UHGV virus genome: UHGV-0089682
DNA: 35,102 nt
Source of the DNA: a virus
Direction: 5' to 3' (one strand)
The notes under the pieces are model-generated. The model worked only from the letters and a program-made list of their open reading frames with translations. It was not told the origin of the DNA and did not search any database. This document shows positions 28,400 through 34,701 of this stretch, piece after piece. Numbering within the stretch: position 1 is the stretch's first letter; every line of letters starts with the position of its first letter. Made by a program: the position numbers and the translations under genes.

Positions 28400-28496
28400 A
28401 TTTCCGATTCCTTATTTTCAGCTTTCGGGCGCAAGCAGTCCCCTGACGCGAGCGCCATACTTAAAACGATGTGATATTTAAAGATTTAATGCGGTG

Positions 28497-29027
28497 TTAT
28501 TTATTCAGTCCGGCGTCCTGTTCAAAAGGCTCGACATAAAAACTTTCAGCGCCTTTATTCACCTTAATACCGGCAATGCCTTTCACTGCATCCGGCTCCG
28601 CCAGGACGGCTTCCTTGTTCACTTCCTCTTTCGTGCGGATGAATCGCTCAAGCCCCATACGGCGCAGCATTTCAATCACACCTTCCACATCACGGCTGAC
28701 GCTGCATGATGGCGTTCCCAGCCGCCATGACACCGTTCCGGTGGTCAGATTGGCTGTTTTGGTTTTGCCGCCGTTCGTCAGCTCATCACGGTTGGTTTTG
28801 CACCAGTCCTGAATCCCTTTAAAAAGCACTTTGATTTGCTTTTTAAGATTTTCAATCTGCGGCGTATAACGGGCGGTGATTTCAGCCACCTCGTCATTCA
28901 TTGCCGTTTCCAGGCGCAGCGCCTCTCGCTGAATATCGCCCAGGGTGCGGATATCACGGCTGACTTCTTCGCGGGTCTGCGGTGCGGCCTCGGCTGCGGC
29001 CTTTAATTTTGTAACGCGTTTTGCCAT
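28497..29027 (-). CDS. gam: Host-nuclease inhibitor Gam (Mu Gam / Ku-like DNA end-binding protein)
   Basis: 176 aa; size matches Mu Gam (~174 aa) and position in early region; coiled-coil N-terminal half. Confidence 0.7.
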   Translation of the reverse strand: MAKRVTKLKAAAEAAPQTREEVSRDIRTLGDIQREALRLETAMNDEVAEITARYTPQIENLKKQIKVLFKGIQDWCKTNRDELTNGGKTKTANLTTGTVSWRLGTPSCSVSRDVEGVIEMLRRMGLERFIRTKEEVNKEAVLAEPDAVKGIAGIKVNKGAESFYVEPFEQDAGLNK

Positions 29028-29038
29028 TTTGTTTTTCC

Positions 29039-29332
29039 TTATTGCAATGTATCTGGTGCGTTCTGCAAAGAACGGCGCTCAATGCTGCTTTTCACCCCCA
29101 GAGCCTGCATGGAACCCTGAAGTTCATCTGTCAGAAACTGAATAATTGTGGGGCTGTGATATTTAAGAATTTGAGCATAAACATCACAGGGTCCTGTCGG
29201 TCTGTTCTCCGTATCACGTTCGATTTTTACAGTGGCAGTAACACCCTCCGTGATTTCCTCACTATCATTACCGGCTGGCTTTACTTCATGCATTACGTAG
29301 TCAAATTCAAAAATAACGCGAACTTTGCTCAT
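29039..29332 (-). CDS. Small early protein, paralog B of tandem pair
   Basis: ATG at 29330-29332; begins MSKVRVIFEFDYV; shares N-terminus and start-codon-proximal nucleotides (cgcgttatttttgaat) with the adjacent upstream gene. Confidence 0.5.
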   Translation of the reverse strand: MSKVRVIFEFDYVMHEVKPAGNDSEEITEGVTATVKIERDTENRPTGPCDVYAQILKYHSPTIIQFLTDELQGSMQALGVKSSIERRSLQNAPDTLQ

Positions 29333-29336
29333 GGAA

Positions 29337-29687
29337 TTACCCCTGTTGATTAAATTCATTACCGTTAATAACCCCGGAAGCCATGCCCCTGTCTTTCATG
29401 AATGCACTGACTTTCATTGCCACAAACTCTGCGAAGTTTCTGCTTTCTGCCAGCATAACCACCCCAAAAATCATAGCGGGTCCATTATCTTTCTTCTTTA
29501 TTCCGGTTGAACGTATATCCAGACTTACTCCTCTGTACGTGCTGCCATCAGCGTTTTTGCAGATAACATCTTCTTTGTATTCAAAAATAACGCGCACAAC
29601 CTTACTCATCCTCTGGTCCTCGTTTTGTTCGGATAACTGACCCGGCGTCCGACCTGATGACAGAGCCGAACCATGAAGTAACTTCAT
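29337..29687 (-). CDS. Small early protein, paralog A of tandem pair (likely true start at 29609)
   Basis: Internal ATG at 29607-29609 gives MSKVVRVIFEYKEDV...; the longer track ORF starts at 29687 overlapping the upstream stop. Confidence 0.5.
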   Translation of the reverse strand: MKLLHGSALSSGRTPGQLSEQNEDQRMSKVVRVIFEYKEDVICKNADGSTYRGVSLDIRSTGIKKKDNGPAMIFGVVMLAESRNFAEFVAMKVSAFMKDRGMASGVINGNEFNQQG

Positions 29688-29914
29688 ACTTCCCAGTAAA
29701 CCGTGCAGCCGCTGATGCGGGTGGCTTTTACACGGCGGCGCAGGCCATTGGTCTTAACGGTGATTTCAATTTCCTCTCCAGTCCCATGAACCTTGCTTAG
29801 CGGTGGCGTGGTTTTCAGTGCAAAGCGTTGCGGGTAGCGTTTGCTGCGCTCCAGTACCGCACCGGCAAGTTCGGTCAGGCGACGGGCGTTATTCAGTGAA
29901 TCAAACAAATTCAT
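29684..29914 (-). CDS. Hypothetical small basic early protein
   Basis: 76 aa, Arg/Lys-rich; overlapping start/stop with neighbours. Confidence 0.4.
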   Translation of the reverse strand: MNLFDSLNNARRLTELAGAVLERSKRYPQRFALKTTPPLSKVHGTGEEIEITVKTNGLRRRVKATRISGCTVYWEV

Positions 29915-30320
29915 AGGTGAACTCCGGTTGTATCAGTAATGGATTCATGCGCAATGCAGCCAGCTCTGACAGGAAGCCTTGATTAACTTTACCCATCCCC
30001 GGAATTTTTCGGGTTTCGCCACGTATGATTGCCCGAAGAATGGAGTAACCGTGCCGCCACTCCCGACGATAATCCTCCATGATCAGAAAACCAAAGCGCA
30101 GGCTTTCCCATACGTCCACATCAAAGCATTCATGATTAAAACGGCGTCTGATGGGTTCAGGTTGCATGTCTGCATACCACTGATACAGGTCTATATACAG
30201 AAAACACACACCATTACTGTTCATCAATTCATAGATATAATCACAAACCTCCCCGTCATCGACGTTAAACTCTCGAAAGCTGTGGAGAACATTGATTTCC
30301 TGCTGTATCTGCATTTTCAT
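29901..30320 (-). CDS. Hypothetical early protein
   Basis: 139 aa; AT-rich coding region; no recognisable motif. Confidence 0.4.
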   Translation of the reverse strand: MKMQIQQEINVLHSFREFNVDDGEVCDYIYELMNSNGVCFLYIDLYQWYADMQPEPIRRRFNHECFDVDVWESLRFGFLIMEDYRREWRHGYSILRAIIRGETRKIPGMGKVNQGFLSELAALRMNPLLIQPEFTYEFV

Positions 30321-30332
30321 ATAACCTCTCGT

Positions 30333-30560
30333 TTAACTAACCCGTCTTGCACCGATAAAGCGACAAATATTGCTGTAAGCTTCTTTCGCACCTTCACGAT
30401 CAAGTCCTGCCGATATTGCCATTCGGGTGCGATCATTAAATTCAAAGAGTAAATAGCCACATTCTTCACTGTCAGACATGGAGACTGCTTTGACGTTATC
30501 GAAATTCACCAGGTAAAAGCGTCCGTAAATATCAGGAATATTAAATGCAGCCATAATCAC
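30333..30560 (-). CDS. Small early protein in the Mu kil position
   Basis: 75 aa ORF starting 4 nt inside the B stop; Mu Kil is of similar size (~74 aa) and position. Sequence identity not verified. Confidence 0.4.
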   Translation of the reverse strand: MIMAAFNIPDIYGRFYLVNFDNVKAVSMSDSEECGYLLFEFNDRTRMAISAGLDREGAKEAYSNICRFIGARRVS

Positions 30561-31489
30561 ACCTGTGAGAGTAATTCAGGGTTGGTATAAACCTCTTTAA
30601 AGGCCGCATTAATATGTTTTTCTGTCAGCGCCGCACCTTCACCGCTGGCGGTGATCCACGCCTGGTTAAGCGTATGTGTCAGAACGCGTAAGGCTCCCGG
30701 CTTTTCAGCGATGGCCTGCATGACGGCCAGCTCGGCCTCACCACTGATACCCCATGCCCTGGCAATGGCCAGCACATCCGCCTTTTTGGCCTTGCGAAGT
30801 TGTTTTGTACGGGCAAGACGGCTGAACAGACGAGATAAATCATCAACGGCGCGGCGTCCACCTTTAAACAGCCCGCGCGGGTTACCAATAAGCACCATCC
30901 CGATCCCCGTGGCGTCCTGAATTGCCCGGAGTTGCTCCAGGCCGTCAATACCAAGATGATCCGCCTCATCAACAATCACCAGTCCACGCGTTCCCATCAG
31001 GCGACGACGGATGGCGCGGGATAATGCCCCTTTGTTCGCGCGGGTGTAATCAATCCCCAGCTCCTCTGCCAACTCCAGCAGACACTCCGTGACGCTGGAA
31101 TGCGCGGGAGACAGGGTGATCATCCAGGTGTTCGGTTGCTCCTGGCAGTAATTACGGGCGGTGGCCGTTTTACCCACACCCGGTACACCAACAATGACGT
31201 TAATACAGCCCATCAGGCGAACCGCCTGAAACAGTGCGCGCAGCTCCTGGACTGTCTGTGTTTCCACAAACTGCGGCGGTTCCGGCAGTGCGCTTTGTTT
31301 ATTCCAGTTCTCATACCAGGAACGCAGGGAAGCAGCCACAGCAGCGTTATCGCCTTTATATTTCCCCTTACGGAAAGCCGATAATGTACCGTCGGAAATT
31401 CCCGCCTCTCTGGCGATGGCATACTGCGTCAGTACGCCGCCATCAATAAGTTCATCAATGGTCTTGATTACATCGTTTATATCGGTCAT
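30557..31489 (-). CDS. B: Transposition ATPase MuB (AAA+ target DNA activator)
   Basis: 310 aa; Walker A GVPGVGKT, Walker B-like LVIVDEADHL; N-terminal HTH-like region; directly downstream of the transposase. Confidence 0.88.
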   Translation of the reverse strand: MTDINDVIKTIDELIDGGVLTQYAIAREAGISDGTLSAFRKGKYKGDNAAVAASLRSWYENWNKQSALPEPPQFVETQTVQELRALFQAVRLMGCINVIVGVPGVGKTATARNYCQEQPNTWMITLSPAHSSVTECLLELAEELGIDYTRANKGALSRAIRRRLMGTRGLVIVDEADHLGIDGLEQLRAIQDATGIGMVLIGNPRGLFKGGRRAVDDLSRLFSRLARTKQLRKAKKADVLAIARAWGISGEAELAVMQAIAEKPGALRVLTHTLNQAWITASGEGAALTEKHINAAFKEVYTNPELLSQV

Positions 31490-34089: not shown

Positions 34090-34701
34090 ATGGATAAGGC
34101 AGAAAAAACCGTATCCAGTGCGGAACGGTTTATTGATATGGAAGGAATAAACCGATTTTCAGAACGCTTAGCTATGGCTATGGGCGACATGACAAACGTC
34201 GAACTGGCGACCCTTTGTGGACTATCTGAAGCCACAGTAAGAAATTACAGGAAGGGGAAAAACTTCCCTCCTTTGGATAAACTGGCCTTAATAGCTAAAG
34301 CCTGTAATTGTTCACTCGAATGGTTGGCCACAGGCAAGAACGAAGATGAATGCGGGGTAATCGAAAATAATTGCGACGCAAGTTCGGGCATTGATCAGGC
34401 GCTTAGTTCTCTAAGCCCCCAAGAGAAGCAATTAATCCTTACATTCATCAGGCGAGAAGGTACTAACAACCTTGTCAGGCTGGCAGCAATGAATACATCT
34501 ACAATCAGCCAGGATGCGGTAGAAAGCATCATTGATGCCTTGCCATTACGTCCCGTACTAAAAAATGCAATAAAGATAGGAATGGCGGGAAGTGAAGAAA
34601 CAGACAAAGAGATTTTGCGCGTTATTGAGAAGTACAACACGAGCAATAACACTGTCCAAGAATCAAAGGCGATGACAGTAAAGAAAAATGCTATTAGTTA
34701 A
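34090..34701 (+). CDS. Mu c-type repressor
   Basis: 203 aa, divergent from ner; N-terminal HTH-like LATLCGLSEATVRNYRKG; position between early operon and phage end as in Mu. Confidence 0.75.
   Translation: MDKAEKTVSSAERFIDMEGINRFSERLAMAMGDMTNVELATLCGLSEATVRNYRKGKNFPPLDKLALIAKACNCSLEWLATGKNEDECGVIENNCDASSGIDQALSSLSPQEKQLILTFIRREGTNNLVRLAAMNTSTISQDAVESIIDALPLRPVLKNAIKIGMAGSEETDKEILRVIEKYNTSNNTVQESKAMTVKKNAIS

What the first reader, a model, noticed from the sequence alone, without database searches (positions are those of the whole stretch)
29039..29687. Tandem pair of diverged small paralogs immediately upstream of gam
Adjacent genes both begin MSKV(V)RVIFE(Y/F) and share 16 nt after the start codon (cgcgttatttttgaat), then diverge while keeping a loosely similar pattern (GV.....I......GP). 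This is a local duplication followed by divergence, a pattern often seen for phage counter-defence proteins under diversifying selection.
Basis: seen in the sequence. Interest (0 to 1): 0.5.

Follow-up and report, generated by a model that had tools for sequence, protein, structure and literature searches.

The report
Two tandem Mu gp7 (Gnarl2-like) genes
Two adjacent small early genes of a Mu-like prophage are distant relatives of each other and of phage Mu gene E6/gp7 (recently named gnarl2, which alters the host O-antigen when expressed), so this is a two-copy version of a known swappable accessory-gene slot and not a new kind of system.

Summary
P1 (90 aa, 29337..29609, minus strand) and P2 (97 aa, 29039..29332, minus) lie between kil and gam in the early operon of a Mu-like prophage. 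They start MSKVVRVIFEY and MSKVRVIFEF and share an exact 16-nt run.

Both belong to one small superfamily, only 36 clusters among 1.84 billion representative proteins. It contains Mu gp7/E6 (Mup07), which Silas et al. 2025 named gnarl2: expressing it downshifts O-antigen bands and sensitises wild E. coli to T5.
- P2 is a clear member of phrog_2230.
- P1 (phrog_4107) is the outlier. With the N-terminal motif removed its profile still matches the rest (hhalign score 28.8; 300 shuffles reach at most 20.2).
- Both are predicted to fold as a beta-hairpin plus a long helix, from a shared alignment.

"Recent local duplication under diversifying selection" is only partly supported.
- The P1 body is least like the P2 body, although their N-termini are most alike.
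- The 16-nt identity is specific to this P1 allele.
- dN/dS is 0.28 (P1) and 0.35 (P2), against 0.09 for flanking genes, so below 1.
- The two P2 allele classes differ by dS of about 0.86 against 0.14-0.18 in the flanks, which indicates old alleles swapped as cassettes. Mu and Mu_3F6 show the same pattern at gp7.

Function is inferred from remote homology only.

The parts
29337..29609 (-). P1: 90-aa gp7-superfamily gene (phrog_4107), the divergent copy
   Evidence: ORF and start codon. phrog_4107 E 3.7e-53, with a weak full-length hit to phrog_2230 at E 0.023. The body matches the rest of the superfamily. AF2 model pLDDT 79.5, with E6-18, E24-35 and H44-73.
29039..29332 (-). P2: 97-aa gp7-superfamily gene (phrog_2230), the cassette-like copy with two allele classes
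   Evidence: phrog_2230 E 9.3e-36. hhalign to subfamilies G, C, H and B gives E 1e-21 to 8e-8. AF2 model pLDDT 77.9, with E4-21, E24-39, H48-58 and H60-77. Nucleotide identity between allele classes falls to 51-76% only inside 29280..29040.
29579..29594 (-). 16-nt exact repeat, copy in P1 (codons 6-11, RVIFEY)
   Evidence: allele-specific
29305..29320 (-). 16-nt exact repeat, copy in P2 (codons 5-10, RVIFEF)
29610..29683 (-). kil-P1 leader. Its last ~45 nt are the remnant 3' end of an upstream gene that is intact (90 aa) in C. braakii and partial (51 aa) in most E. coli relatives. It contains the P1 Shine-Dalgarno-like GAGGACCAGAGG.
29684..29914 (-). kil (context; upstream neighbour)
   Evidence: phrog_2679 E 3.7e-38
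28497..29027 (-). gam (context; downstream neighbour)
   Evidence: PF07352 E 5.5e-42

Best explanation
P1 and P2 are two anciently diverged members of the small Mu gp7/E6 superfamily, which comprises phrog_10252 (Mu gp7, named gnarl2), phrog_2230 (P2 and most relatives) and phrog_4107 (P1). They are encoded head to tail in the early operon of a Mu-like transposable prophage.

Shown: each is an 87-98 aa protein with a conserved N-terminal strand (M-[AS]-K-V-x-V/I-I-F-E-F/Y). Each has a predicted long beta-hairpin, a loop ending in G-P, and a ~30-residue helix. Neither has an enzyme-like feature or a known domain.

Shown: the slot behaves as a single-gene cassette. Old, strongly diverged alleles are exchanged by recombination, with breakpoints at the conserved 5' codons and at the stop codon.

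Inferred: this E. coli lineage holds two cassettes instead of one, and the 5' end of P1 has been homogenised towards P2, or P1 is a chimera.

Inferred from the one tested relative: the proteins act as stoichiometric binders of host proteins, probably as dimers. By analogy with Gnarl2 they may perturb O-antigen/LPS assembly after induction or infection, for receptor masking or superinfection exclusion. Different alleles and the two paralogs may suit different host variants.
For: Family membership:
- PHROG hits.
- hhalign network: P2~G 1.4e-21, P2~C 2.4e-11, P2~H 1.2e-10, P2~F 9e-6, A(Mu gp7)~F 4.5e-11, A~H 1.5e-7.
- P0134 matches both phrog_2230 (1e-24) and phrog_10252 (1e-6).
- P1 body against all non-P1 bodies scores 28.8, against a shuffle maximum of 20.2.
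- Only these two ORFs in the window match the superfamily HMM.
- The family is tiny: 36 clusters at E <= 1e-3 among 1.84e9 representatives.

Fold:
- Both AF2 models have the same topology at pLDDT 78-80.

Cassette behaviour:
- The drop in identity is confined to the P2 body.
- All P1/P2 allele combinations occur.
- P0004 is an intragenic chimera of the two P2 classes.
- P2 is bimodal in 232 E. coli genomes: 32 records at >=90% nt, 201 at 60-80%, none between.
- Mu and Mu_3F6 are 95-100% identical except across gp7, where identity is 42%.
- Single-copy arrangements exist in L046 and in C. braakii.

Expression context: no promoter-like or minus-strand terminator-like site was found in 28400..30700, which fits the region lying inside the early operon.

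Function of the relative: gnarl2 is NP_050611.1, Mu 4784..5047. It downshifts O-antigen bands and raises T5 infection 1e5-1e6 fold in ECOR1 and ECOR22 (PMC12373910).
Against: - Direct BLASTP of P1 or P2 against Mu gp7 finds nothing. Direct hhalign gives E 0.14 for P2 against A and about 0.01 for P1 against A. The link to the tested protein is therefore only transitive, and function may not transfer at under 20% identity.
- The direct target of Gnarl2 is unknown, and its phenotype came from heterologous expression.
- Both AF2 models were built from alignments that mixed the two families, so their agreement is not independent. A crude family-by-family hydrophobic-periodicity check supports only the second strand.
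- BFVD gave no significant match for the P1 model.
- No oligomer prediction could be run.
Confidence: 0.5

Rival explanations
1. P1 and P2 are inhibitors of intracellular anti-phage defence systems (restriction-modification or others), kept variable by an arms race.
For: - They lie in the accessory early region next to gam, an end-protection (anti-RecBCD) gene.
- dN/dS is 3-4 times that of flanking genes.
- Alleles are mosaic.
- They are small proteins with no enzyme-like domain.
Against: - dN/dS is below 1 gene-wide, and the elevated dS indicates allele exchange.
- The only tested relative gave effects that did not correlate with any specific defence system and were phenocopied by O-antigen mutants (PMC12373910).
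- There is no Pfam or NCBIfam match to any known anti-restriction family.
Confidence: 0.2
2. A recent in-situ tandem duplication followed by rapid divergence of the whole body under positive selection, with the N-terminus as the untouched remnant.
For: - The genes are adjacent and in the same orientation, 4 nt apart.
- The MSKV...R-V-I-F-E N-terminus is shared only by these two subfamilies.
- There is a 16-nt identity.
Against: - The P2 body is far closer to genes in Citrobacter and other Mu-like phages than to P1.
- The P1 body scores lowest against P2.
- The 16-nt identity is confined to one P1 allele group.
- There is no gene-wide dN/dS above 1.
Confidence: 0.12
3. The resemblance is limited to a translation-initiation or N-terminal context, and the two proteins are otherwise unrelated.
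For: - With the first 11-12 residues removed, P1 family against P2 family alone gives no signal (E 0.24-0.27).
- The full-length hhalign hit covers only columns 1-34.
Against: - Against the merged superfamily, the P1 body scores 28.8 over 61 collinear columns, about 8 sd above the column-shuffle mean.
- P1 hits phrog_2230 across residues 5-78.
- Length, G-P position and predicted topology are the same.
Confidence: 0.07
4. They modulate Mu's own early functions (transposition, replication or host DNA metabolism) like other semi-essential early genes, with no role at the cell surface.
For: They sit between B/kil and gam in the early operon. The function of most genes in this region is unknown.
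Against: Core-function modulators would not be expected to be swapped for alleles of 42-60% identity between otherwise near-identical phages, nor to be absent or doubled in relatives.
Confidence: 0.1

Closest known systems
Phage Mu gp7 / E6 / Mup07 = Gnarl2 (NP_050611.1; phrog_10252; Silas et al., Nat Commun 2025, PMC12373910)
   Same: - Small (87 aa) early accessory protein of a transposable phage, lying between B/kil and gam.
- Same N-terminal motif (MAKVIIEI against MSKVRVIFEF), and the same beta-hairpin, loop, helix layout in alignment.
- Same single-gene cassette behaviour.
- Linked by profile comparisons through subfamilies F and H.
   Different: - No direct pairwise similarity.
- Mu has one copy, separated from gam by gp8 and gp9; here two copies directly abut gam.
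- Mu gp7 and most subfamilies end in a conserved His, which P1 and P2 lack.
- The phenotype has been tested only for Mu gp7.
phrog_2230 proteins, e.g. the gp7-slot protein of Escherichia virus Mu_3F6 (VUD37869.1) and the 97-aa gene of a Citrobacter braakii Mu-like prophage (L052 3001..3294)
   Same: P2 is a member (E 9.3e-36). It is 34% identical to the C. braakii protein (E 5e-15). Size, motifs (TGP.D, SP.II.F) and early-operon position are shared.
   Different: Those phages carry a single copy. No member has a tested function.
Gnarl1 and Gnarl3 (other small phage proteins that alter O-antigen; Gnarl3 binds GalU)
   Same: Proposed mode of action only: a small non-enzymatic phage protein that perturbs LPS/O-antigen synthesis by binding a host protein (PMC12373910).
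   Different: They come from lytic phages and are grouped with gnarl2 by phenotype. No sequence relationship was tested here, and none is claimed.

Membership tests
Mu gp7/E6 (Gnarl2) superfamily | Significant sequence or profile similarity to Mu gp7 (NP_050611.1 / phrog_10252) | tested here: inconclusive
   Direct tests fail or are weak: BLASTP finds nothing, hhalign P2~A gives E 0.14, and P1~A gives E 0.008-0.011. Transitive links are strong: P2~F 9e-6 and P2~H 1.2e-10, with F~A 4.5e-11 and H~A 1.5e-7. P0134 hits both phrog_2230 and phrog_10252, and Mu gp7 itself hits phrog_2230 at E 0.009 full-length.
Mu gp7/E6 (Gnarl2) superfamily | N-terminal motif M-[AS]-K-V-(x)-[VI]-I-[FI]-E-[FIY] at the very start of an 80-100 aa protein | tested here: met
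   P1 starts MSKVVRVIFEY and P2 starts MSKVRVIFEF. Alignment A2 has I7 invariant and E9 nearly invariant.
Mu gp7/E6 (Gnarl2) superfamily | Position in the early (semi-essential) operon of a Mu-like transposable phage, between B/kil and gam | tested here: met
   Gene order in the window, compared with Mu and Mu_3F6.
Mu gp7/E6 (Gnarl2) superfamily | Single-gene hypervariable cassette between conserved flanks | tested here: met
   P2. Mu against Mu_3F6 at gp7. P1 shows milder allele classes.
Mu gp7/E6 (Gnarl2) superfamily | Expression downshifts O-antigen bands and sensitises O-antigen-bearing E. coli to T5 | not testable with these tools
   The phenotype is reported only for Mu gp7 (PMC12373910).
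phrog_2230 | Full-length HMM match | tested here: met
   P2: E 9.3e-36, residues 3-97 on profile positions 1-88 of 89. P1 reaches only E 0.023 (residues 5-78), so P1 is not a member at family level.
phrog_4107 | Full-length HMM match | tested here: met
   P1: E 3.7e-53, residues 1-90 on profile positions 1-90 of 90.
Known anti-restriction / anti-defence protein families present in Pfam or NCBIfam | HMM match to any such family | tested here: not met

The most novel reading that the evidence does not exclude
The gp7 slot is a swappable specificity cassette. Each allele or paralog binds a different variant of the serotype-specific O-antigen machinery. The conserved N-terminal strand would serve both as the recombination anchor for cassette exchange and as a dimer interface. 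A phage carrying P1 plus P2, possibly as a heterodimer, could then remodel the surface of a wider range of E. coli serotypes.
Probability: 0.12. Interest if true: 0.6.

Novelty: new member of a known kind. Interest (0 to 1): 0.35.

Why it matters
- It ties two unannotated PHROG families (phrog_4107 and phrog_2230, found in about 4% of complete E. coli genomes, including O157:H7 and O111:H8 strains) to the one tested relative, Mu gp7 = gnarl2. That gives a concrete assay for "hypothetical" prophage genes: LPS gels and T5 plating in wild strains.
- It shows that the slot evolves by exchange of old alleles and not by measurable gene-wide positive selection. This is a useful caution for reading "diverged tandem paralogs" as arms-race genes.
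- If alleles prove serotype-specific, the locus would be a natural panel for finding Gnarl2's unknown target.

Tried and rejected
- Pfam, NCBIfam and a PDB sequence search gave nothing for P1, P2 or the family profile.
- The afdb50 library was unavailable. An independent check against AlphaFold DB models of each family was therefore not possible.
- The search for related loci with the whole-superfamily alignment failed for lack of a conserved stretch. The subfamily-G alignment found only one genome locus.
- My first attempt at trimming the N-terminus missed most P1 sequences, so the "trimmed" and "reversed" columns of the E_P1 rows are stale and invalid. It was redone.
- Hydrophobic-periodicity analysis per family was too crude to confirm the helix.
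- Literature searches for the Mu semi-essential early region found nothing on gp7. The locus-tag search found the gnarl2 papers.
- The AP-MS supplement held as text is only a sample sheet, so it gave no clue to a target.
- I considered that natural variant L046, which lacks P1, is a simple deletion between the two 5' repeats. I rejected this as unproven, because its leader is itself diverged from the P1 leader.

Full report
**1. What is there**

The window is a nearly complete Mu-like prophage with its genes on the minus strand. At one end are a Gin-type invertase, a tail-fibre assembly protein and a Gp48-like protein. Further along are GemA-like and Gp11-like proteins. At the other end are a CI-type repressor, transposase A and B.

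In the early operon the order is:
- B (30557..31489)
- a 75-aa gene
- a 139-aa gene
- kil (29684..29914; phrog_2679)
- P1 (29337..29609)
- P2 (29039..29332)
- gam (28497..29027; PF07352)

The region 28400..30700 holds no promoter-like site and no terminator-like site on the minus strand. This fits co-transcription.

P1 and P2 are 4 nt apart, and P2 ends 11 nt before gam.

**2. Check of the observation**

P1 is MSKVVRVIFEYKEDV... (90 aa) and P2 is MSKVRVIFEFDYV... (97 aa).

The 16-mer CGCGTTATTTTTGAAT occurs exactly twice in the window, at 29579..29594 and 29305..29320. No matches occurred in 100 shuffles. The longest common substring with shuffled P2 never exceeded 13 nt in 500 trials.

The longer 116-aa reading of P1, which sets the finding's upper coordinate, is not the conserved product. 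In most related prophages another ORF ends on the MSKVV start with an ATGA overlap.

**3. What family they belong to**

Neither protein matches Pfam or NCBIfam. In PHROGs:
- P1 is phrog_4107 (E 3.7e-53).
- P2 is phrog_2230 (E 9.3e-36).
- P1 also touches phrog_2230 weakly but nearly full length (E 0.023).

A tblastn hit of P2 led to the gene in the gp7 slot of Escherichia virus Mu_3F6. That protein (MAKVIFEFTW...) and Mu gp7 itself (MAKVIIEIKN...) carry the same N-terminal motif.

A profile search seeded with these found more subfamilies in Escherichia, Salmonella, Yersinia, Cronobacter and Citrobacter. An exhaustive HMMER scan of 1.84 billion representative proteins found only 36 clusters at E <= 1e-3. 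The superfamily is therefore real but very small.

Profile-profile comparisons give a connected network:
- P2~G 1.4e-21
- P2~C 2.4e-11
- P2~H 1.2e-10
- P2~B 7.8e-8
- P2~F 9e-6
- Mu gp7 (A)~F 4.5e-11
- A~H 1.5e-7

Most of these links survive removal of the N-terminal motif; A~H does not (E 0.0027). In PHROGs, Mu gp7 is phrog_10252 and hits phrog_2230 at E 0.009. P0134 hits both families, at 1e-24 and 1e-6.

**4. Is P1 really related to P2 beyond the N-terminus?**

- P1 family against P2 family alone gives no signal once the first 11-12 residues are removed (E 0.24-0.27).
- P1 bodies against the merged bodies of all other subfamilies give hhalign score 28.8, E 1.9e-5, over 61 collinear columns. 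The alignment puts GVSLDIR on GVTATVK, GPAMIFGVVML on GPCDVYAQILK and MKDRGM on MQALGV.
- 300 column shuffles of the P1 alignment give mean 10.8, sd 2.3 and maximum 20.2.

AlphaFold2 predicts the same topology for both:
- P2: strands 4-21 and 24-39, helix 48-77 with a break at Ser-Pro, pLDDT 77.9.
- P1: strands 6-18 and 24-35, helix 44-73, pLDDT 79.5.

One caveat matters. Both predictions used alignments that mixed the two families, so they are not independent. The afdb50 library that could have provided an independent check was unavailable.

My conclusion is that P1 and P2 are homologous, but remotely.

**5. How the pair arose and evolves**

I compared 39 IMG/VR loci that carry P1, further loci found with P2, and an E. 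coli chromosome.

*Allele classes.* B, kil and gam are 83-100% identical to the window at the protein level, mostly above 89%. P2 falls into two classes, about 91-97% and about 57-61% identical to the window. P1 falls into about three classes (>=90%, 86-87% and 77-80%). All combinations occur.

*Where the divergence sits.* Between P2 classes, nucleotide identity falls to 51-76% only inside 29280..29040. It stays at 83-85% over the first ~50 nt of P2 and returns to about 96% in gam.

*Distribution in E. coli.* Among 5,426 complete genomes, 232 carry the gene. The distribution is bimodal: 32 records at >=90% nt, 201 at 60-80% and none between. P0004 is an intragenic chimera of the two classes.

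*Selection.*

| Gene | dN/dS |
|---|---|
| P1 | 0.28 |
| P2 | 0.35 |
| kil, gam, B | 0.09 |

Between P2 classes dS is 0.86, and about 1.2 in the hairpin and helix. Flanking genes have dS of 0.14-0.18. The alleles are therefore older than their flanks. This is recombinational cassette exchange plus relaxed constraint, not demonstrable gene-wide positive selection.

*The same pattern in Mu.* Mu and Mu_3F6 are 95-100% identical from kil to gam except across gp7, where identity falls to about 42%.

*Single-copy arrangements.* L046 has a P2-type gene directly after a diverged version of the leader. A Citrobacter braakii prophage has one G-type gene after an intact 90-aa gene. The window's kil-P1 leader is the remnant 3' end of that 90-aa gene.

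*Discordance within P1.* The P1 body is the least P2-like in the superfamily: hhalign score 11.0 against P2, compared with 22.5 against G and 18.1 against Mu gp7. Its N-terminus (MSKV-R-V-I-F-E) is the most P2-like. The exact 16-nt match exists only in the window-type P1 allele. The common P1 allele differs from it at five positions in the first 33 nt, and three of those five changes converge on the P2 sequence. Synonymous codons in this motif differ among Mu, Mu_3F6 and the window.

I read this as 5' homogenisation (gene conversion) or a chimeric origin, on top of an old paralogy. I do not read it as a recent tandem duplication.

**6. Function**

A locus-tag search found that Mu gp7/E6/Mup07 (NP_050611.1, Mu 4784..5047) is the gene named gnarl2 (orf63/UDP0063) by Silas et al. 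(bioRxiv 10.1101/2023.04.06.535777; Nat Commun 2025, PMC12373910). It is the exact ORF I translated.

According to the paper:
- It was expressed from a single-copy construct in wild E. coli.
- It downshifted O-antigen bands in ECOR1 and ECOR22.
- It raised T5 infection 1e5-1e6 fold in those strains.
- O-antigen mutants phenocopied the effect.
- The effect did not correlate with any specific defence system.
- The direct target is unknown.
- The authors suggest a benefit through superinfection exclusion or receptor masking.

By remote homology, position, size and cassette behaviour, I take P1 and P2 to be small non-enzymatic host-protein binders of this kind. The transfer of the O-antigen phenotype is an inference across less than 20% identity, and direct BLASTP finds nothing. 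I put the combined statement at about 0.5. Superfamily membership is clearly more certain than the specific phenotype.

**7. Verdict**

It is wrong in its particulars: this is not a recent duplication, gene-wide diversifying selection is not shown, and the nearest tested relative acts on the O-antigen barrier and not on restriction-type defence.

This is a two-copy instance of a known, recently named accessory-gene family. Its modest added value is linking phrog_4107 and phrog_2230 to gnarl2.

Noticed in passing
window 29901..30320 (-): The 139-aa gene upstream of kil is a remote relative of Mu gp8 (also 139 aa): BLASTP 29% identity over 76 residues, E 2e-4. Here it sits before kil, whereas in Mu gp8 follows gp7. 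It is missing from most related loci.
   Followed up: partly
window 29610..29683 (-); L009 2349..2504; L052 2732..3004: The 74-nt kil-P1 leader is the leftover 3' end of a gene that is 90 aa in a C. braakii prophage and a 51-aa remnant in most E. coli relatives. The early region is a patchwork of insertions and deletions.
   Followed up: partly
L046 2402..2794; L038 2259..2504; L028 and L036 around 2800..3330: Natural variants: L046 has no P1. L038 lacks kil and fuses the 75-aa gene to the remnant ORF. In L028 the P2 5' end is truncated, and gam appears disrupted in L028 and L036. P0092 and P0096 are frameshifted P2 forms. Some prophage copies are decaying.
   Followed up: no
protein P0121 (710 aa), top hit: A 710-aa protein made of about 13 repeats of a ~52-aa unit containing EQTGPASMFAVILLS scored best against the family profile (13 stretches on profile positions 34-54). 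It looks like a chance match of a repeat to the G-P plus hydrophobic-helix segment, not a relative.
   Followed up: no
subfamilies A, B, C, F, G, H: Nearly all other subfamilies end in a conserved C-terminal His (...KH...RH...CH). P1 (…NQQG) and P2 (…DTLQ) both lack it.
   Followed up: no
window 34090..34701 (+) and 526..1095 (-): The repressor is a CI/HTH_3-type protein (PF07022, PF01381). A Gin-like serine invertase with an adjacent tail-fibre assembly gene marks a probable invertible host-range segment at the other end.
   Followed up: no
one search hit list: The divergent P2 class (about 71% nt) is the one seen in listed O157:H7 and O111:H8 genomes, while a window-like allele is seen in an O103:H2 strain. 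This hints that allele class may track serogroup or prophage lineage. It was not analysed.
   Followed up: no
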